From the IMG/VR virus record IMGVR_UViG_2778261572_000014: DNA of 24,652 nucleotides; one strand, 5' to 3'. Shown here in pieces: positions 6,459 to 13,266 of this stretch. A program made the translations under genes and the position numbers. Positions within the stretch are counted from its first letter, which is position 1; the number at the start of each line of letters is the position of its first letter. The notes beneath the pieces were generated by a model, which was not told the origin of the DNA, made no database searches, and saw only the letters and a program-made list of their open reading frames with translations. This stretch comes from a virus. Lineage: Duplodnaviria; Heunggongvirae; Uroviricota; Caudoviricetes.

Positions 6459-9281
6459 ATGACGGCAGAGTACATCAGGGACTGGCAACAACCGCGCCAC
6501 GCAGTGGGACGTGAAGGAACGGGGATCCCCGTTCCTGAATCTGCGCTTTCCTCCTGGCTGGATGCCTACCGGGCAGAGAACGAGCGCCGCCAGGAAATGG
6601 CTGATGCGGCGTTCTCCGCCACGCCGCTGGGCAACCTGATTAATAAAAGCCTGGATGCACAGGAAAAACAGGACAAAACCATCACACTGGCAGGAGACGC
6701 CAGAAAACAGGCACGCGGCGCGGTGGATGAAGCCATGGCCTCGCTGCGCCTGCTGCCGTCCTATCTGCGCGATCCGCTTATTCGCCACCTCTCCTTCCTG
6801 CGCAAAAAACAGGAAGTCGATCGCCGGAAAGGCAAAAAGAGCTGGCAGGCTGAACGCTACGCGCGCGGAACCCTGCGCAAAATATTCGAACGTCTGGATC
6901 GCACTGACGGACACTGGCTGACACCGGGTTATCGCTTCCTTGCCGGACGCGAACGCCTGGACGATTTGCTTTACCTGCCGCAGCTCAACAAACACCAGAT
7001 ACAGACGCTGGCCACCATGACGGCGGCGATGTTCAGCAGCACCTTCGAAAAACTCTGCGATGGCTTTGGCGCGACCGATGGCGAACTGACCATGGATGTA
7101 ACGCTGAAGGCGTATCAGATGCTGGCCCGCATGGCGTTACACCTGCACATCATGCCTCCACATTATGACGCACTGACAACAGATAAAGACCGGAGGAACG
7201 AACCGGACACGGAGCTGCTGCCGGGCGCAATCCTTCGCCTGACCTGTGCGGAATGGTGGAAACGCAAACTGTGGCTGTTACGTTGCGAGTGGAGAGAAGA
7301 ACAACTCCGCGCCGCCTGTCTGGTTTCCAGAAAAACATCACCCTATCTGAGCCAGGACGCGTTAAGCGAGTTTCGCGCACAGCGCGAGAAAACACGCGAT
7401 TTCCTGAAAAGTTTCATGCTGGAAAACGAAGACGGGTTCACGATTGATCTCGAGACAGTGTATTACGCGGGAGTAAGTAACCCGGTTCACCGTAAGGCAG
7501 AAATGATGGCCACCATGAAGGGGCTGGAACTTCTGGCCGAAGCCCGTGGCGACAAAGCGGTGTTTCTGACTGTCACCTGCCCGTCAAAATACCACGCCAC
7601 AACAGAGAACGGTCATCCGAATCCCAAATGGAACGGGGCCACCATGCGCGACTCCAGCGATTACCTGGTTAACACGTTTTTTGCAGCGGTCCGCAAGAAA
7701 CTGAACCGCGACGGCCTGCGCTGGTATGGCATCCGCACGGTGGAGCCTCACCATGACGGCACCGTGCACTGGCATATGATGGTCTTTGCTCATCCGGAAG
7801 AAATCGACACCATTGTGTCCCACACCCGCGATATTGCCATTCAGGAAGATCGTCACGAGCTGGGTGATGATATTACCCCACGCTTTAAGGCGGAGTACGT
7901 CGACGGCTCAAAAGGCACGCCAACCAGCTACATCGCCACCTACATCGGAAAGAACCTGGACAGCCGCGCCGTGGATGGCATCGACCCGAAAACGGGCAAG
8001 CCACGCGTTGACCACGAAACAGGTAAATCAATGGCCGAGAGCGTGGAGCGCGCCATCGGCTGGGCGCGCCTTCACCGGGTCCGCCAGTTCCAGTTCTTTG
8101 GCATCCCCTCCCGTCAGGTGTGGCGTGAACTCCGCCGCCTTGCCAGCCAGATGGCACGCAACCCGGAAGGCCCGCAACGGCTGAAGGATGACGCAATGGA
8201 TGCGGTACTCGCTGCCGCTGATGCCGGATGTTTTGCCACCTACATTGAAAAACAGGGTGGCGTACTTGTTCCGCGCAAGGACTACCTGATTCGCACAGCC
8301 TACGACCTCGCAGATGAGCTGAACGATTACGGCGAACAGAGTGTACAGATTTACGGGATCTGGTCGCCATTCATCGGGGAATCCTCCCGTGTGTGCACGC
8401 ATCCGGATAACTGGAAGCTGGTAAGACGTAAACCGGAAGCGGAAGACAGCGCCCGCGAAAATGGTTTTGACCTTCAGGGCGGCCCTGCCGCCCCTTGGAC
8501 TCGTGGCAATAACTGTCCCCGTGTACAGGAAACGGACAACAACGGGACAGAACAGCCGGAAGAACGGCCAGCACCGTGGCCGCAGCTCCCTGACGGCGTT
8601 GAAGTGAACGAATGGATGCGCTCACTGAAACGGCACGAACGCCGGGCGCTGATGCGTTCGCTTCGTGACAAACAGGCAAAAAACAGCAGTGATGAAATGC
8701 AGAGCTGGACACAGAGCCGCAAACAGCAGCGGCCTTTGCCTGATAACCACGAATTACTCGCTAAAGAATGGCGGGAGTCTGCCGAATCTCTCGGCCTGCA
8801 TATCGGTGAACAGCAGATGCAGCACCTGTTACGGGGCGGCAGCCTGTACGTTGACGGCAGCATCATTGCACCGCAGGGATTTGAAATTGTACGCAAACCG
8901 GATACCCGCCCGGACAGCCGAATCACGCAGCTCTGGCAGCGCCTGAGCCGTAATCACGGCGTAAGCAGCACGGAGATCCGCCATAACCCGGTCGCCGGCT
9001 ATCTGGAACAGCTGGGGATATCAGACCCCGAAGCCGCCGCACGCCTGGCATCCACACTTCAGCAGGACCAGAACACCATGAAAACCCCCGTTACCGTGCT
9101 TTCTGACATGCTGCGCGCCATCCGTGACGCAGAGCACGCACAGAGAATCAGTGAAACCACTGAACGCGCCCGCCGCAAAGCAGACCTGCTGCGGGGTAGC
9201 CTGACCAGTGGAAACAAAAAACAGACAGAAACGGGATTCATAAAACCCGTAAATGAGCAAAAAACGCGCCGCGATATATGA
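6459..9281 (+). CDS. A: Rolling-circle replication initiator endonuclease, P2 gpA family
   Basis: 940 aa. Contains TVTCPSKYH and RTVEPHHDGTVHWHMMVF (HUH-type motif), followed by YIATYIGKN, as in P2 A (LTAPSKYH, RVVEPHHDGTPHWHMMLF). C-terminal third is long and low-complexity. Confidence 0.9.
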   Translation: MTAEYIRDWQQPRHAVGREGTGIPVPESALSSWLDAYRAENERRQEMADAAFSATPLGNLINKSLDAQEKQDKTITLAGDARKQARGAVDEAMASLRLLPSYLRDPLIRHLSFLRKKQEVDRRKGKKSWQAERYARGTLRKIFERLDRTDGHWLTPGYRFLAGRERLDDLLYLPQLNKHQIQTLATMTAAMFSSTFEKLCDGFGATDGELTMDVTLKAYQMLARMALHLHIMPPHYDALTTDKDRRNEPDTELLPGAILRLTCAEWWKRKLWLLRCEWREEQLRAACLVSRKTSPYLSQDALSEFRAQREKTRDFLKSFMLENEDGFTIDLETVYYAGVSNPVHRKAEMMATMKGLELLAEARGDKAVFLTVTCPSKYHATTENGHPNPKWNGATMRDSSDYLVNTFFAAVRKKLNRDGLRWYGIRTVEPHHDGTVHWHMMVFAHPEEIDTIVSHTRDIAIQEDRHELGDDITPRFKAEYVDGSKGTPTSYIATYIGKNLDSRAVDGIDPKTGKPRVDHETGKSMAESVERAIGWARLHRVRQFQFFGIPSRQVWRELRRLASQMARNPEGPQRLKDDAMDAVLAAADAGCFATYIEKQGGVLVPRKDYLIRTAYDLADELNDYGEQSVQIYGIWSPFIGESSRVCTHPDNWKLVRRKPEAEDSARENGFDLQGGPAAPWTRGNNCPRVQETDNNGTEQPEERPAPWPQLPDGVEVNEWMRSLKRHERRALMRSLRDKQAKNSSDEMQSWTQSRKQQRPLPDNHELLAKEWRESAESLGLHIGEQQMQHLLRGGSLYVDGSIIAPQGFEIVRKPDTRPDSRITQLWQRLSRNHGVSSTEIRHNPVAGYLEQLGISDPEAAARLASTLQQDQNTMKTPVTVLSDMLRAIRDAEHAQRISETTERARRKADLLRGSLTSGNKKQTETGFIKPVNEQKTRRDI

Positions 9282-9329
9282 AGCGCGCATAAAACAGGCA
9301 AAAACGGGATTTAAAAACCCCGTAAACGA
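9229..9329. repeat. Two 28-bp direct repeats (24/28 identical), each with internal ACGGG...CCCGT dyad; candidate parC-like centromere/operator
   Basis: R1 9229-9256 AAACGGGATTCATAAAACCCGTAAATGA and R2 9302-9329 AAACGGGATTTAAAAACCCCGTAAACGA, 73 bp apart, directly upstream of parM. R1 overlaps the last codons of A. Confidence 0.45.
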
Positions 9330-9357
9330 TTAATTAATCAACATAAGGAAAATCGAC

Positions 9358-10317
9358 ATGAAAATTTGTATCGACGACGGCTCCACCAACATCAAGCTGG
9401 CATGGACTGAGAACGGCGAACGCCGCAACGCCATCAGCCCGAACAGCTTCAAATCGGAATGGTCTGCGCCGTTCGGTGGCATACAGCCCGCGAACTACAT
9501 GCTTGATGGCGTGCGCTATGGTTTTGATCCGGTCAGCGATCGCTTTGTCCAGACGACCGACACGCAATACCAGTACAGCGATGTGAATGTAATTGCCATT
9601 CATCACGCGCTGGTCAAATCAGGCATCACGCCACAGGAGGTGGATGTGGTTGTCACCCTGCCACTGAGCGAGTATTTCGACACAAACGCACAGCCGGACA
9701 TGGCCAACATCAACCGCAAAAAAGCAAACGTCATGCGCCCGGTGGCGTACCAAAACGGAAAAGCATTCACTATCCGTAACGTACGGGTTATGCCTGAATC
9801 CATTCCGGCTGGTTTTAAAGCACTGGCTGACATGAGTCCGTTTGAATCCCTGCTGATTGTGGATTTAGGCGGAACCACGCTGGATGTGGCAAAGGTTCAG
9901 GGGCAACTGGCAGGTATCAGCCAGGTGTTTTGCGATCCACACGTAGGCGTTTCCCTGATGGCCGATGCCGTACTGTCGGTGATGGCCACTAACGGTATGC
10001 GTACCAGTCACCACATCGCCAATACCATTATCGAACATCGCCATGATGAAGCCTGGCTGCGCCAGCACATCCACAATGACGCGCATTACGCCAGCCTGAT
10101 GGCGGTTATTCGTGAAAAGGAAGAAACACTGAAACAACGCGTGATCCGCGCGCTGGCGGGTTTTTCGGGTTACGGGCGGGTGATGGTTGTCGGTGGTGGG
10201 GCGGAGATTGTGGCACCCGCTATCCGCGAAGCCTGCGGAGTTAATGCGACTTTCATCACGGACGGGGTGCCACAGTTTGCTCTGGTTAATGGGCTGTACG
10301 CAATGGACAAGGAGTAA
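9358..10317 (+). CDS. parM: ParM/StbA-family actin-like segregation ATPase
   Basis: 319 aa, ATG 9358 with AAGGAA upstream. MKICIDDGSTNIKLAW..., YSDVNVIAIHHAL, VMPESIPAG, LIVDLGGTTLD, VMVVGGGAE, LVNGLY run in register with remembered plasmid R1 ParM (MLVFIDDGSTNIKLQW..., LIIDLGGTTLD, VMVIGGGAE, LVNGMY). Confidence 0.85.
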   Translation: MKICIDDGSTNIKLAWTENGERRNAISPNSFKSEWSAPFGGIQPANYMLDGVRYGFDPVSDRFVQTTDTQYQYSDVNVIAIHHALVKSGITPQEVDVVVTLPLSEYFDTNAQPDMANINRKKANVMRPVAYQNGKAFTIRNVRVMPESIPAGFKALADMSPFESLLIVDLGGTTLDVAKVQGQLAGISQVFCDPHVGVSLMADAVLSVMATNGMRTSHHIANTIIEHRHDEAWLRQHIHNDAHYASLMAVIREKEETLKQRVIRALAGFSGYGRVMVVGGGAEIVAPAIREACGVNATFITDGVPQFALVNGLYAMDKE

Positions 10318-10321
10318 ACCA

Positions 10322-10633
10322 ATGACGACACCAACCAGACGGATAAGTTTCTATCTGAAGCCCGCCGCCGTCAAGAACGAAGGTGAAGCATGCGCCTGGC
10401 TGGACAGCCTTACACCAGAAGCTCGCAAAAGCGGCCAACGCGTGGCTTTTCTGGCCGGGCTGGCACTTCTGAAAATGAATCCGGCAGAGGCTTACCGACT
10501 GGCTGCATGGGCTGATGATGAGGCGTTATCAGTGACACAAACCAGGGCAGAACACCACATGTTACAGCCAGCGCCCACCGCACAGATAACCAGCCAGCTA
10601 GCCGGAAATATCCGGGCGTTATTTCCTGAATAA
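10322..10633 (+). CDS. parR: ParR-like centromere-binding adaptor (ribbon-helix-helix)
   Basis: 103 aa, ATG 10322, 4 nt after the parM stop, AAGGAG upstream. RRISFYLKPAAV...LDSLTPEARKSGQRVAFLAGLALL...IRALFPE parallels R1 ParR (RRTIAFKLNPDV...LDSIPQGERSRLNRAALTAGLALY...LRSLFPKE). Confidence 0.7.
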   Translation: MTTPTRRISFYLKPAAVKNEGEACAWLDSLTPEARKSGQRVAFLAGLALLKMNPAEAYRLAAWADDEALSVTQTRAEHHMLQPAPTAQITSQLAGNIRALFPE

Positions 10634-10639
10634 CACAAC

Positions 10640-10661
10640 ATCAGGGCGAGTTCGCCCTGAT
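10640..10661. promoter_or_regulatory. Perfect 22-bp palindrome between parR and the PP-loop gene
   Basis: ATCAGGGCGA-GT-TCGCCCTGAT (9-bp arms), no U-tract; followed 12 bp later by AAAGGAGG and the GTG start of the next gene. Confidence 0.4.
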
Positions 10662-10685
10662 AACACTATCCAAAGGAGGCAAACA

Positions 10686-11693
10686 GTGAGCATCATTCAG
10701 CGCTGCCGAGCAGAAAACACTTTTAATTTGGTTTCCATGTCTGGCGGGAAAGACTCACTGGCGCAATGTTTGTATGCCATAGAAAACGATATACAGCATG
10801 AGCGAGTGTTTGCTGATACGGGACACGAACACCCACAAACGATGGAGTACCTTGACTACCTGGAACAAAAGCTGGGCCCAATTCGTCGCGTAAAAGCCGA
10901 CTTCACTCGCCAGATAGAAGGTAAGCGCAAATTCATTGCTGAAAAATGGCCAGTATCTCTTGTTGCAGAGTGCGGAATGACGCCTGATGAAGCAGCGGAA
11001 CGTGTTGCTCGTGCGCTGGAAATCCTCCACCCAACCGGAAATCCATTTCTTGACCTGTGCATGTGGAAAGGTCGTTTCCCGAGCACTAAAGCGCGGTTCT
11101 GTACATTCGAACTGAAACACGAACCAGTGCGCACTCAGGTGGTGCAACCTGCGCTTGATGAATATGACGAAGTTATCTCCTGGCAGGGCGTGCGTGCTCA
11201 GGAATCGCCATCGAGGGCACGCCTGCAAGTGTGGGTGGAGGATGCGGACAATACCCCCGGATTGCATGTCTATCGTCCGATTCTCAACTGGCTACATGAG
11301 GATGTTTTCGCTATTGCCAGGCGTCACGGGATTAAACCCAACCCACTCTACCAACAAGGATGCAGCCGCGTTGGGTGTATGCCATGCATTCATGCCAGAA
11401 AATCTGAACTGGCGGAAATTTTTCAGCGCTGGCCAGAGGAAATCGCCAGAGTGGCAGAGTGGGAACGATTAGTTGCAGCCTGCTCTCGCCGCGGCAACTC
11501 AACGTTTTTCCCGTCAACTCATGACCCGCGCCGGGCAGAATGTCGCATAGATGTTGTTACCGTAGACAGCTACGGAATCGAAACCTATCGCGACTGGGCA
11601 ATGACAACCCGGGGCGGCGCTCAATTTGACCTGCTGGCGAGCACGAACGATAAGGCGGTGTGCAACAGTGTTTATGCGGGAGTATGCGAATGA
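10686..11693 (+). CDS. PAPS-reductase-family PP-loop ATP pyrophosphatase-like protein (DndC/CysH-like fold), function unknown
   Basis: 335 aa. GTG start 10686 with GGAGG 6 nt upstream; no upstream in-frame ATG. N-terminal VSMSGGKDS PP-loop, FADTGHEHPQT, WQGVRAQESPSRA, and C-terminal cysteine cluster CSRVGCMPC. Confidence 0.8.
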   Translation: MSIIQRCRAENTFNLVSMSGGKDSLAQCLYAIENDIQHERVFADTGHEHPQTMEYLDYLEQKLGPIRRVKADFTRQIEGKRKFIAEKWPVSLVAECGMTPDEAAERVARALEILHPTGNPFLDLCMWKGRFPSTKARFCTFELKHEPVRTQVVQPALDEYDEVISWQGVRAQESPSRARLQVWVEDADNTPGLHVYRPILNWLHEDVFAIARRHGIKPNPLYQQGCSRVGCMPCIHARKSELAEIFQRWPEEIARVAEWERLVAACSRRGNSTFFPSTHDPRRAECRIDVVTVDSYGIETYRDWAMTTRGGAQFDLLASTNDKAVCNSVYAGVCE

Positions 11694-11768
11694 ACAGCAT
11701 GAAAATATTGTTACCCGACATCTGATTTTACTTCTTCAAATCAGGGCAATAATCACGCATCGCCCTGC

Positions 11769-11795
11769 TGCACAATAGTGCACAAATTTGCACAA
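11769..11795. repeat. Three TGCACAA direct repeats at exact 10-bp phasing
   Basis: TGCACAA at 11769, 11779 and 11789, followed by a T-run, in the non-coding interval where P2 architecture places cos and the cargo-locus promoters. Confidence 0.4.
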
Positions 11796-12167
11796 TTTTT
11801 TTGAACGACTTTTTACCCTTCCGGCCCGCATGGCGGCTGGATCCGTCAAGGATCCGTGCGTGCACAAAAAAACGCGTTTTTTCTGCGCGCAGGTGACGGG
11901 GGAACAGCCCGCGTTTCTGGGGGTAAATAGCGTTCCCTTAACGATGTCGCAGCGACACGACAGAATGGCCGTATTTCTCACGCTGAGCGTGAAAAATACG
12001 TGAGGGATTCTGGTTTGATGGGGTGAAAGGTAAGGCCGTCAAAATCGCACTGAGGCGGCGAGAACATGCAGTCAGCGCAGTGGGATTGCGTAAGAATCTG
12101 ACCGTCGATGATGGCAATAAGCAGGAAAGCATCGTGAAATTATCTGACTGATACAGGAGCTGGAGAG

Positions 12168-12192
12168 TCGGGGCATAAATTTTTTATGCCCC
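12168..12192 (-). terminator. Strong stem-loop 28 bp downstream of Q; terminator or packaging-region element
   Basis: CGGGGCATAAA-TTT-TTTATGCCCCG, a perfect 11-bp inverted repeat; lacks a clean U-tract on the Q strand. Confidence 0.35.
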
Positions 12193-12219
12193 GGCGAAGC
12201 AGCAGACAAGCGAAGCGCG

Positions 12220-13266
12220 TCAGGATGTGGGCTGGGTATCTAACAGTGCGTAAGGGTTAAAGCGGATCACCTCTTCGCCAAGCCAGTCATTGATGTGCTT
12301 CATGGCCTCCATGACGGGCATCAGCTCGTTAATTGCGTAAACCCGCGCGGCCTTCTCCACATCACCAAACGCACTTTTTTCGCCCGGCATCGCCCCCATC
12401 AGTTGCGGCGGAACGCGGTGCGCAGCCAGCACATCATCACGGGATGCCGCCTTAACATTCATGAACTCATCCTTTGCGGTGATCTGCTGGAACGGCAAAA
12501 TTTGCACCCCCTCTTTGCCCCCGTTGGGCGCATGAATGAGCACGTTTTTAAACGCACCACCACCACGTGCCCCCTGTAGCGTTTCTTTCAGGGAGTCCAT
12601 GCTTTCGCGGTTTACCTGCGCTGCACCGATGTAGATGATGCACCCGGCGTGGGATCCGTTGTCGTAGTACAGTTTTCTGAACATGTCCGCCGAATGAGAA
12701 AGGCTGGCCGAGAGTAATGCGCCAAGATATTCCGGCATGCCGTAGATTTCCTGGTTAATATCCGGATTCATCAGGTGGCACACTTTGCCAGGACGAAACT
12801 GAAACGCGTCCTTGCCATCCTGCACATACCACCATGATTCAAGATCGCTTCCGCGTCGCATGTATTTCGCCAGGGCGTGCCGTAATTTAAGCGGTTCGCC
12901 GAGCATATTGCTCCGAAGCTCAAGGAATGCGTTACCGAACACAAACCAGTCCAGCGCCAGCGCCGAGAAATCCTGCCGGGAAAGCAGCGGGTGCGGAATA
13001 TAGCAGCCGAGCAATACATTGCGCTTAAAGTAAAGCGCAGACTGATGCCAGGACGTTTGCCGGGCAGCTCTTGCCAGACCGTACCAGTTCACCGGGGTTT
13101 CATACCACCGCCCGTTATCAGCACAGTACATATTGTCCAGCAGGTCATGCCCGGTCAGGCGATAAGGACCATCAAATGTGAATGCACTGAGCGATGATTC
13201 TTTCCTGAGCGCATCAGCGAGATCAATGCGTGAACTCATGCGCACTTTTTTATTTTTTCTGCTCAT
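12220..13266 (-). CDS. Q: Portal protein, P2 gpQ family
   Basis: 348 aa (P2 Q about 344 aa). Minus strand directly downstream of P, with its ATG overlapping the P stop. Position and size match the P2 Q-P capsid operon. Confidence 0.85.
   Translation of the reverse strand: MSRKNKKVRMSSRIDLADALRKESSLSAFTFDGPYRLTGHDLLDNMYCADNGRWYETPVNWYGLARAARQTSWHQSALYFKRNVLLGCYIPHPLLSRQDFSALALDWFVFGNAFLELRSNMLGEPLKLRHALAKYMRRGSDLESWWYVQDGKDAFQFRPGKVCHLMNPDINQEIYGMPEYLGALLSASLSHSADMFRKLYYDNGSHAGCIIYIGAAQVNRESMDSLKETLQGARGGGAFKNVLIHAPNGGKEGVQILPFQQITAKDEFMNVKAASRDDVLAAHRVPPQLMGAMPGEKSAFGDVEKAARVYAINELMPVMEAMKHINDWLGEEVIRFNPYALLDTQPTS

What the first reader, a model, noticed from the sequence alone, without database searches (positions are those of the whole stretch)
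10640..10661. Perfect palindrome separating parR from the PP-loop gene
ATCAGGGCGA-GT-TCGCCCTGAT is a 22-bp perfect palindrome with no U-tract, placed immediately before the SD and GTG start of the PP-loop gene. It could be an operator that puts the third gene under separate control, an RNA stability hairpin, or a recombination scar marking module fusion.
Basis: seen in the sequence. Interest (0 to 1): 0.4.

Follow-up and report, generated by a model that had tools for sequence, protein, structure and literature searches.

The report
Border hairpin of a prophage cargo slot
The palindrome is real: it is a conserved stem-loop that closes the partition (parM-parR) unit of a P88-type, P2-like prophage and marks the fixed left edge of an already known swap-in slot for accessory and defence genes, so it is a tidy border element rather than a new kind of switch.

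Summary
The inverted repeat ATCAGGGCGA-GT-TCGCCCTGAT is at 10640-10661, 6 nt after the parR stop and 11 nt before the SD of a PAPS-reductase (PP-loop) gene. It is non-random. The window is a P88-like (Xuanwuvirus, P2-family) prophage. The palindrome lies in the known gpA-gpQ, cos-proximal cargo hotspot. Across about 230 related loci the same 9-bp stem follows parR, with at least seven loop variants and at least seven unrelated downstream cargoes. Sequence homology ends exactly at its 3' arm. The arms are more conserved than parR synonymous sites, the loop is as variable as the cargo, and two compensatory pair changes exist. A second, diverged copy (11742-11767) sits at the right border of the slot. 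The element does not travel with the PP-loop gene, does not occur at internal cassette junctions, and is essentially absent from other phages. It has no + strand U-tract, no promoter, and no resemblance to the candidate parC repeats. Best reading: a backbone RNA stem-loop that forms, protects or insulates a transcript end at the slot border; which strand uses it is unresolved. An operator is not supported. "Recombination scar" is wrong in detail, because the hairpin predates the cargo, but "module boundary" is right. Modest interest.

The parts
9358..10317 (+). parM (actin-like partition ATPase), first gene of the backbone unit that the hairpin closes
   Evidence: Pfam StbA_N 1.5e-81 and ParM_N 1.5e-68
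10322..10633 (+). parR (Plasmid_stab_B family); stop codon TAA at 10631-10633
   Evidence: Pfam PF10784 2.4e-24. Relatives are found almost only in P88-like prophages
10634..10639 (+). CACAAC spacer between the parR stop and the hairpin; the least variable non-coding stretch at the junction. On the - strand it is the start of a U-containing tail (GUUGUG UUA UU)
   Evidence: Per-site diversity 0.013, against 0.078 for the parR 3' end
10640..10661 (.). The palindrome (left border hairpin, 'H-L'): 9-bp stem ATCAGGGCG/CGCCCTGAT with a 4-nt loop AGTT
   Evidence: dG -16.3, z -6.2; conserved in relatives
10662..11741 (+). Variable cargo of this particular prophage. It holds 9 nt of unknown origin, then the SD (10673-10679), the GTG start (10686), the PP-loop/PAPS-reductase gene 10686-11693, and a 27-nt remnant ORF at 11699-11725
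   Evidence: Homology to relatives is lost between 10661 and 11769. Homology to PP-loop genes in other phages begins at CAAAGGAGG. Pfam and PADLOC hits
11742..11767 (.). Right border copy ('H-R') of the same element: CAGGGCAAT-AATCACGC-ATCGCCCTG. It is degenerate here, with one A.C mismatch on the + strand that is a G.U pair on the - strand. The consensus in relatives is CAGGGCGAT-AATCGCGC-ATCGCCCTG
11769..11802 (+). Invariant right anchor of the slot: TGCACAA repeated three times, followed by T7. It is a weak-stem, good-T-tract, terminator-like site for + strand transcripts
12220..13266 (-). Portal gene (gpQ homologue), the backbone gene on the far side of the slot, converging on parR
   Evidence: ORF; annotated as phage portal protein in relatives

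Best explanation
The palindrome is a conserved structural stem-loop of the phage backbone, not of the cargo. It sits 6 nt past the parR stop, at the point where rightward parM-parR transcription meets the variable slot of the P2-family gpA-gpQ hotspot. It most likely acts at the RNA level as a transcript-end or insulating element. On the + strand it would be an intercistronic stem-loop with no U-tract. Such a structure blocks 3'-to-5' exonucleases and so gives the parMR message a defined, stable 3' end, whatever cargo follows and however that cargo's RNA decays. It may also dampen read-through into the cargo. The PP-loop gene has no promoter of its own between the hairpin and its SD, so it must be transcribed through the hairpin. 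On the - strand the same stem is followed by GUUGUGUUAUU and could stop leftward read-through (from the late P-Q operon or from - strand cargo) before it runs antisense into parR. Because selection keeps this element intact, cargo replacements end exactly at its edges, and it therefore appears as the left border of the slot. Shown: the structure, its conservation, the exact breakpoint, its backbone origin, and the absence of a promoter or a + strand U-tract. Inferred: RNA-level action, and which strand matters.
For: (1) Context. The window is a P88-like prophage. The region between parR and the portal gene is the gpA-gpQ cos-proximal hotspot described by Rousset et al. 2022 (PMC9122126). (2) Breakpoint. 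Megablast hits to 1448 E. coli records cover query 1-1381, which is window 9281-10661, and then resume at 11769. Relatives carry ead/Ea22, ClpX-Zn-finger (+/- a Doc/Phd toxin-antitoxin pair), DUF3800, HTH+PIN or DUF4760 genes in the slot instead. (3) The same stem is followed by at least 7 unrelated sequences: AACACT, GACTTTAA, CTCCAYCTC, GCACAAA, GTCCCATT, ATCCCC/ATTCCC, GCCAACG. It occurs both with a + strand and with a converging - strand first cargo gene. (4) Selection on the stem. In 69 distinct contexts, per-site diversity is 0.078 for the parR 3' end (0.102 at third codon positions), 0.013 for the spacer, 0.045 and 0.044 for the two arms, 0.40 for the loop and 0.46 for downstream sequence. 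96.5% of stem cells are paired, against 34-49% when the partner columns are slid. (5) Compensatory changes. The closing pair changes from G:C to A:T in L082 and L157, and T:A changes to C:G in the diverged L006-type copy CCAGGGCGG-AAA-CCGCCCTGG. (6) Functional analogues at the same positions. At the right border the H copy alternates with three different canonical intrinsic terminators. Eight of 10 left-junction types have a hairpin of -8 to -22 kcal/mol within 70 nt of the parR stop. (7) Stable stem-loops not followed by U-rich sequence are the documented steady-state 3' ends of Rho-dependent E. coli transcripts and protect them from PNPase and RNase II (Dar & Sorek 2018, PMC6061677). (8) There is no sigma-70-like promoter in 9000-12400 and no Rfam family match.
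Against: There are no transcript data, so function and strand are inferred. Covariation is thin: one pair with double changes in the close set, and 93 of 500 shuffles reach the observed count of pairs with a change on both sides. The relatives are about 92-97% identical, so much of the stem conservation could reflect recent common descent or recombinational homogenisation. Symmetric changes in a DNA palindrome can also arise by templated (quasipalindrome) mutation without any selection. Wobble evidence for strand is weak and conflicting: two G.U-on-plus events in the left copy, and two G.U-on-minus against one G.U-on-plus in the right copy. Five junction types have replaced the hairpin altogether, and one (L008) has no hairpin at all, so it is dispensable. 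Several of the 'analogous' hairpins are simply terminators of converging cargo genes. The - strand tail is a poor U-tract. A downstream gene whose SD lies 11 nt after the stem argues against Rho termination at this site.
Confidence: 0.5

Rival explanations
1. DNA-level recombination element. The palindrome and its right-hand copy would be the substrates for cargo swapping, acting through short homology, hairpin-promoted template switching, or an unknown hairpin-specific recombinase. They would then cause the breakpoints, in the manner of PeSL stem-loop cassettes in T4-type phages, rather than merely surviving them.
For: Breakpoints fall at the last base of the 3' arm in at least 7 cargo types. 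Two copies sharing the 8-nt arm core CAGGGCGA/TCGCCCTG bracket the slot. The same loop occurs with different cargoes and different loops with the same cargo (CATC+ead and AGTT+ead). One allele has the loop exactly inverted, AGTT to AACT (L020). One 83-bp 'empty' slot is an exact deletion between the 5' arm 10-mer ATCAGGGCGC and an identical 10-mer inside a cargo gene, with 83 of 83 bases matching the reconstruction. The mechanism of swapping at P2 hotspots is stated to be unknown (PMC13586616). PeSL precedent: PMC2839356.
Against: None of 31 cargo arrangements has a copy at an internal cassette junction. The PP-loop gene in 80 other phage contexts carries no such hairpin, so the element is not part of a mobile cassette. 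Five junction types break right at the parR stop without using the hairpin. The two flanking copies are explained more simply as one ancestral hairpin, with insertions on either side of it followed by ordinary homologous recombination between phages. No recombinase is associated. Nine to ten bp is very short for homology-driven exchange.
Confidence: 0.15
2. Minus-strand intrinsic terminator only. The stem plus GUUGUGUUAUU would stop leftward transcription (late P-Q read-through across cos, or - strand cargo genes) before it becomes antisense to parR and parM. On this reading the + strand hairpin is incidental.
For: The terminator scan ranks it first among - strand sites (10 pairs, 6 G-C, tail TTGTGTTATT). 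The - strand fold is -17.1 kcal/mol. The spacer that encodes the tail is the most conserved non-coding segment (diversity 0.013). The right copy is always preceded on the + strand by CAAAY, which is RUUUG after the stem on the - strand. The window's right copy pairs better on the - strand.
Against: The U-tract is interrupted and weak. The diverged L006-type copy has the - strand tail CUCUGCUUAC. Converging - strand cargo genes bring their own terminators, even when the hairpin is present (L022, L182). Part of the tail is constrained anyway by the parR stop codon and last codons.
Confidence: 0.15
3. Protein operator or centromere-like site. A dimeric regulator (ParR, the phage repressor, or another backbone protein) would bind the palindrome as duplex DNA to control the downstream gene or partition.
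For: It is a perfect 10+10 inverted repeat directly upstream of a gene. The arm sequence, not only the pairing, is conserved in three contexts: the left copy, the L006-type copy and the right copy.
Against: No promoter is found to regulate. The centre and spacing vary, with 3-, 4- and 8-nt loops. There is no similarity to the 42-nt repeats upstream of parM that are the candidate parC, and no half-site with 2 or fewer mismatches lies in 9200-9357. The element is retained whatever gene follows, including converging genes.
Confidence: 0.05
4. Functionless relic. On this reading it is a leftover hairpin, for example an old terminator that lost its U-tract when cargo was inserted. It would persist only because the relatives are recent and palindromes self-correct by templated repair.
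For: It is dispensable in several lineages. Covariation is thin. Mismatched alleles exist: L002, L005, and the CT variants.
Against: The arms are less variable than parR third-codon positions, while the 4-nt loop between them is as variable as unrelated cargo. The element is kept intact next to at least 7 independent replacements, and again as a second copy at the other border.
Confidence: 0.15

Closest known systems
Protective 3' stem-loops of Rho-dependent or processed E. coli transcripts (Dar & Sorek 2018, PMC6061677), and intercistronic stabiliser hairpins such as the REP element between malE and malF (the latter from my own knowledge)
   Same: It is an energetically stable G+C-rich stem-loop with no following U-tract. 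It lies just after the last codon of an operon segment and could block 3' exonucleases.
   Different: No RNA 3' end has been mapped here. A translated gene begins 24 nt downstream, so Rho termination right after the stem is unlikely. It is a single-locus element, not a dispersed family like REP.
Intrinsic (Rho-independent) terminators, including bidirectional ones
   Same: It has a strong stem. On the - strand it is followed by a partly U-rich tail. At the right border of the same slot, canonical terminators replace its sister copy in other phages.
   Different: There is no U-tract on the + strand in any cargo type. The - strand tract is interrupted.
PeSL (promoter-early stem-loop) cassettes of T4-type phages (Arbiol et al. 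2010, PMC2839356; Comeau et al. 2014, PMC4122927)
   Same: These are conserved stem-loops at the edges of hyperplastic regions, where insertions, deletions and replacements begin and end. A deletion through arm microhomology is seen here too.
   Different: There is no associated promoter. There are only two copies per genome, none between cassettes, and no evidence of mini-circles.
P2-family gpA-gpQ cos-proximal defence hotspot (Rousset et al. 2022, PMC9122126; Moura de Sousa et al. 2026, PMC13586616)
   Same: The locus is the same (between replication gene A and portal gene Q, next to cos), as is the behaviour: dozens of alternative gene sets.
   Different: Those papers define the hotspot by its genes. 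A text search found no mention of hairpins, palindromes or terminators at its borders. In P88-like phages the parMR pair lies inside the A-Q interval, and the variable part starts only after this hairpin.
Integron attC sites
   Same: These are imperfect palindromes at cassette borders that fold as hairpins.
   Different: attC travels with its cassette and needs an integrase. Here the hairpin stays with the backbone, is much shorter, and no integron integrase is present.

Membership tests
Intrinsic terminator (+ strand) | G+C-rich stem-loop | tested here: met
   9-10 bp stem with 6 G-C pairs, -16.3 kcal/mol
Intrinsic terminator (+ strand) | Run of U immediately 3' of the stem | tested here: not met
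   The tail is AACACTATCC in the window, and no cargo type supplies a T-run
Intrinsic terminator (- strand) | Run of U immediately 3' of the stem | tested here: inconclusive
   The tail GTTGTGTTATT passes the simple scan's criterion of at least 5 T in 8 bases but is interrupted. The L006-type copy lacks it
Protective 3' stem-loop of Rho-dependent or processed transcripts | Stable stem-loop not followed by U-rich sequence | tested here: met
   definition from PMC6061677
Protective 3' stem-loop of Rho-dependent or processed transcripts | Steady-state RNA 3' end immediately downstream of the stem; stabilisation against PNPase and RNase II | not testable with these tools
   Needs Term-seq or 3' RACE and decay measurements in a lysogen
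Palindromic operator | Half-sites at fixed spacing, overlapping or next to a promoter | tested here: not met
   No promoter-like site in 9000-12400. The centre is 3, 4 or 8 nt long and freely variable
parC centromere of a ParMR system | Shares the repeat unit bound by ParR, normally an array upstream of parM | tested here: not met
   The candidate parC repeats (9215-9256 and 9288-9329, core ACGGGATT..AACCCGT) are unrelated to ATCAGGGCG. Actual ParR binding is not testable here
PeSL-like shuffling cassette | Composite of a strong promoter plus a stem-loop | tested here: not met
   No promoter consensus is adjacent to the stem
PeSL-like shuffling cassette | Copies flank each variable ORF, and rearrangement endpoints lie in the element | tested here: inconclusive
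   Endpoints coincide with the element, and two copies bracket the slot. However, none of 31 arrangements has an internal copy
Integron attC / cassette-borne recombination site | The site moves together with the gene cassette | tested here: not met
   None of 80 loci encoding the PP-loop protein elsewhere has a CAGGGCR..YGCCCTG hairpin within 1.5 kb
Dispersed repeat (REP/BIME-like) or known RNA family | Many copies in unrelated contexts, or a match to an Rfam model | tested here: not met
   54 of 60 exact matches in IMG/VR lie at the parR flank of P88-like phages, and 6 lie in unrelated G+C-rich contexts. No Rfam hit at E <= 1
P2-family gpA-gpQ hotspot (locus membership) | Lies between replication gene A and portal gene Q, with many alternative gene contents | tested here: met
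   Gene order. About 30 cargo arrangements of 83-2328 bp in 73 loci. Definition in PMC9122126

The most novel reading that the evidence does not exclude
The two related hairpins that bracket the slot (left copy at 10640-10661, right copy at 11742-11767, shared core CAGGGCGA/TCGCCCTG) might be the actual recombination substrates through which P88-like phages exchange, delete and capture cargo. That would be a minimal, promoter-less counterpart of T4 PeSLs, or a hairpin-targeted exchange site. It would supply a mechanism for the rapid defence-gene swapping at P2-family hotspots, which recent surveys leave unexplained.
Probability: 0.12. Interest if true: 0.6.

Novelty: new member of a known kind. 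Interest (0 to 1): 0.3.

Why it matters
The finding gives nucleotide-level borders to a well-studied defence hotspot in one P2-family lineage: ...CGCCCTGAT on the left, and a sister hairpin followed by TGCACAA x3 on the right. It also shows that + strand cargo placed directly after the hairpin (window, P88 and ead types) has no room for a promoter of its own and is presumably transcribed from the parMR unit through the stem-loop. That is useful in three ways. Cargo, including un-annotated defence candidates, can be extracted automatically. Expression of such cargo in lysogens can be predicted. Reporter or swap constructs can be designed. If the hairpins were shown to promote exchange, they would bear on the open question of how defence genes are swapped so quickly. 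As it stands the element is an ordinary-looking transcript-boundary hairpin.

Tried and rejected
(1) Rfam scan of 9000-12400 at E <= 1: no hit. (2) ParR or parC site: the half-site is absent from the parM upstream repeats. (3) General module-boundary motif in other prophages: the exact pattern in IMG/VR is confined to this locus. (4) An 'empty' slot with a single hairpin abutting TGCACAA: the pattern search returned only the L022 cargo type, not a true empty site. (5) A cassette-borne hairpin: rejected, because none of 80 PP-loop loci elsewhere has one. (6) Plasmid ParMR modules as the source of the hairpin: ParR relatives in PLSDB are only 7 records, mostly P88-like DNA. The GTDB species-representative scan gave only 3 loci, two of them probable contaminant contigs, so no distant lineage was available for stronger covariation. 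(7) Sequestration of the cargo SD by the parR 3' end (UUUCCU with AAGGAGG) with the hairpin nested inside: it is predicted in the MFE fold of the window and, with a different partner, of P88, but not of the ead type, and it is not in the centroid fold. I dropped it as unsupported. (8) Assigning the strand from G.U against A.C changes: there are too few events and they conflict between the two copies. (9) A megablast search with the cargo DNA against GenBank phages found nothing. The protein search showed the nearest named relative to be the PAPS-reductase gene next to gene A in phage 186. (10) The Nilsson et al. 2004 paper on P2 TO-region recombination is not held in the library. (11) The P2 cos 19-mer is not present in the window with 3 or fewer mismatches.

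Full report
**Observation**

The sequence ATCAGGGCGA-GT-TCGCCCTGAT is at 10640-10661, as reported (pair I21).
- It has perfect 10-nt arms around a 2-nt centre that is not self-complementary.
- As a single strand it forms a 9-bp stem with a 4-nt loop: -16.3 kcal/mol on the + strand and -17.1 on the - strand, and none of 200 shuffles is as stable.
- The window holds three distinct inverted repeats with arms of at least 10 nt and loops of at most 8 nt, against a mean of 0.28 in dinucleotide shuffles.
parR is 10322-10633 (Plasmid_stab_B), preceded by parM at 9358-10317. The SD AAGGAGG lies at 10673-10679. A 335-aa PAPS-reductase/PP-loop ORF starts with GTG at 10686.
- There is no T-run after the stem on the + strand. 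On the - strand the tail is GTTGTGTTATT.

**Context**

- The window is a P88-like (Xuanwuvirus, Peduoviridae) prophage. The gene order is replication endonuclease A, parM, parR, cargo, then the converging portal (Q) and terminase genes.
- The A-Q interval next to cos is the P2-family defence and accessory hotspot described by Rousset et al. 2022 (PMC9122126) and revisited by Moura de Sousa et al. 2026 (PMC13586616). The later paper says the swapping mechanism is unknown. A text search of both papers found no mention of hairpins or terminators.
- Megablast of 9281-12220 against 5426 complete E. coli genomes finds 1448 records.
- The shared left block is query 1-1381, which is window 9281-10661. 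It ends on the last base of the palindrome. Homology resumes at 11769.
- Only one genome carries the PP-loop cargo in this slot, and there it is a pseudogene.
- Other relatives carry ead/Ea22, ClpX-Zn-finger with or without Doc/Phd, DUF3800, HTH+PIN, DUF4760 and other genes.

**Comparative anatomy of the left border**

I collected about 230 related loci from IMG/VR, metagenomes, GTDB genomes and RefSeq.
- In 73 loci with both anchors the slot holds about 30 arrangements, 83-2328 bp long.
- Directly after TAA-CACAAC, most loci have the same 9-bp stem with loops CATC, TATC, AGTT, AACT, TGTT, GGTT or TATT.
- At least seven unrelated sequences start right after ...CCCTGAT.
- The first cargo gene can be co-directional (window, P88, ead, L123) or converging (L022, L020).
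- Loop alleles and cargo types are mostly linked but do recombine: CATC and AGTT both occur with ead.
- Five junction types diverge right at the parR stop and have other hairpins or none.

Per-site diversity in 69 distinct contexts:

| Segment | Diversity |
|---|---|
| parR 3' end | 0.078 |
| parR third codon positions | 0.102 |
| Spacer CACAAC | 0.013 |
| 5' arm / 3' arm | 0.045 / 0.044 |
| Loop | 0.40 |
| Downstream sequence | 0.46 |

- Pairing is kept in 96.5% of stem cells, against 34-49% when the partner columns are slid.
- There are two compensatory double changes. The closing pair goes from G:C to A:T in L082 and L157. T:A goes to C:G in the diverged homologue CCAGGGCGG-AAA-CCGCCCTGG of the L006 type.
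- Formal covariation support is nevertheless weak, because the sequences are close relatives.

**A second copy at the right border**

- At 11742-11767 the window has CAGGGCAAT-AATCACGC-ATCGCCCTG, immediately before the invariant right anchor (TGCACAA three times, then T7).
- In relatives the consensus is a perfect 9-bp stem, CAGGGCGAT-AATCGCGC-ATCGCCCTG. It is preceded by CAAAY and found after at least five different cargo ends.
- It shares the 8-nt arm core with the left palindrome, which chance does not explain.
- Other lineages have canonical intrinsic terminators at that position instead.
- No arrangement has a copy at an internal junction.
- Some loci have only the left copy (P88 type), some only the right copy (L044, L041, L047), and some both (window, ead).
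- The simplest history is one ancestral hairpin between parR and the TGCACAA repeats, with cargo inserted on either side of it. Ordinary recombination between such phages would then give genomes with two copies. This history is inferred.

**Whether the hairpin belongs to the cargo**

It does not.
- The PP-loop protein has 275 close relatives in IMG/VR. None of the 80 loci examined has a CAGGGCR..YGCCCTG hairpin.
- Homology to the window starts at CAAAGGAGG, 9 nt after the palindrome.
- The nearest named relatives are PAPS-reductase genes next to gene A in phage 186, Yersinia phage P37 and a P2-like record, at 82-83% amino-acid identity.
- The exact palindrome pattern in IMG/VR occurs 54 of 60 times at the parR flank of P88-like phages. 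The other 6 are in unrelated G+C-rich contexts.

**Mechanism**

- The consensus scan finds no promoter in 9000-12400, and only 24 nt separate the hairpin from the GTG. The PP-loop gene must therefore be transcribed through the hairpin, from the parMR promoter or one further upstream. That step is inferred.
- A stable stem-loop without a U-tract at the end of an operon segment is the documented form of exonuclease-protective RNA 3' ends in E. coli (PMC6061677).
- The positional equivalence with canonical terminators at the other border, and with other hairpins in junction types that lack this one, supports a transcript-boundary role.
- The strand is unresolved. The very conserved spacer and the RUUUG motif next to the right copy favour a - strand terminator-like role. 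Two G.U-preserving substitutions in the left copy favour the + strand.
- I therefore commit to a backbone RNA stem-loop that defines or insulates transcript ends at the slot border, at about 0.5. This figure is for the + strand stabiliser or attenuator reading, with a dual-strand role also possible. The purely - strand terminator reading is scored separately as a rival (0.15).

**Rivals**

- A DNA-level recombination role has some support. The breakpoints are exact, two copies bracket the slot, and one allele has an inverted loop. The 83-bp slot of L018/L019 also reconstructs exactly (83 of 83 bases) as a deletion between the arm 10-mer ATCAGGGCGC and an identical 10-mer inside a cargo gene.
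- Against that role: there are no internal copies, the hairpin does not travel with cargo, and several junctions ignore it.
- An operator or parC role is not supported. There is no promoter, the spacing varies, and the half-site does not resemble the 42-nt repeats upstream of parM.
- A functionless relic remains possible, but it fits poorly with arms that are more conserved than synonymous sites beside a hypervariable loop.

**Verdict**

The element is a newly described but ordinary kind of feature: a border stem-loop of a known hotspot. Interest is modest (0.3). The most novel reading still open is that the paired hairpins drive cargo exchange (probability about 0.12).

Noticed in passing
window 6515-6536: There is a fully self-complementary 22-bp palindrome, AGGAACGGGGATCCCCGTTCCT, inside the 5' end of the replication endonuclease (gene A) ORF. 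It is one of only three inverted repeats in the window with arms of at least 10 nt.
   Followed up: no
window 12169-12193: There is an 11-bp-arm palindrome, CGGGGCATAAA-TTT-TTTATGCCCCG, 27 nt past the portal gene stop on the - strand. It folds at -17.6 kcal/mol and also has no U-tract, so it is the same style of operon-end hairpin as the one studied.
   Followed up: partly
window 11769-11802: TGCACAA is repeated three times at 10-nt spacing and followed by T7. This is the invariant right anchor of the cargo slot in all cargo types. It could be a weak + strand terminator or a protein-binding array near cos.
   Followed up: partly
window 9215-9256 and 9288-9329: Two 42-nt direct repeats (83% identical) each contain a small hairpin, ACGGGATT..AACCCGT. 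They straddle the end of gene A, just upstream of parM, and are a likely parC centromere/promoter region of the ParMR system.
   Followed up: no
window 10686-11693: The PP-loop cargo protein matches PADLOC SspD (5.5e-25), BrxP and DndC profiles. It is 82-83% identical to the PAPS-reductase gene that sits next to gene A in phage 186 and Yersinia phage P37. Here it lies in the hotspot instead. That placement is rare: 1 of 5426 E. coli genomes, and there it is a pseudogene.
   Followed up: partly
window 11699-11725: A 27-nt ORF remnant (MKILLPDI*) follows the PP-loop gene. It matches the first codons of the gene that follows PP-loop genes in other phage contigs. This points to capture of the cargo followed by a deletion.
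   Followed up: partly
L018 and L019 (IMG/VR), slot of 83 bp: This near-empty slot was produced by an exact deletion between two ATCAGGGCGC 10-mers. One is the hairpin's 5' arm plus the first loop base, and the other lies inside a cargo gene. The reconstruction from L013 matches 83 of 83 bases.
   Followed up: yes
L020 (IMG/VR), hairpin after parR: The loop is the exact reverse complement of the window's (AACT against AGTT) while the arms are unchanged. This is the signature of an inversion or template switch within the palindrome.
   Followed up: no
NZ_CP148288.1 (PLSDB), 34,461 bp record: A P88-like parR (91% amino-acid identity) lies on a phage-sized record deposited as a non-mobilizable plasmid. 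This hints that these ParMR-carrying phages may sometimes be recovered as extrachromosomal circles.
   Followed up: no
L151 and L153 (GTDB genome contigs): P88-like parR DNA appears in assemblies labelled Vagococcus sp. and Fredinandcohnia humi. The latter is a 229-bp contig with coverage of about 1. Both are probably contamination.
   Followed up: no
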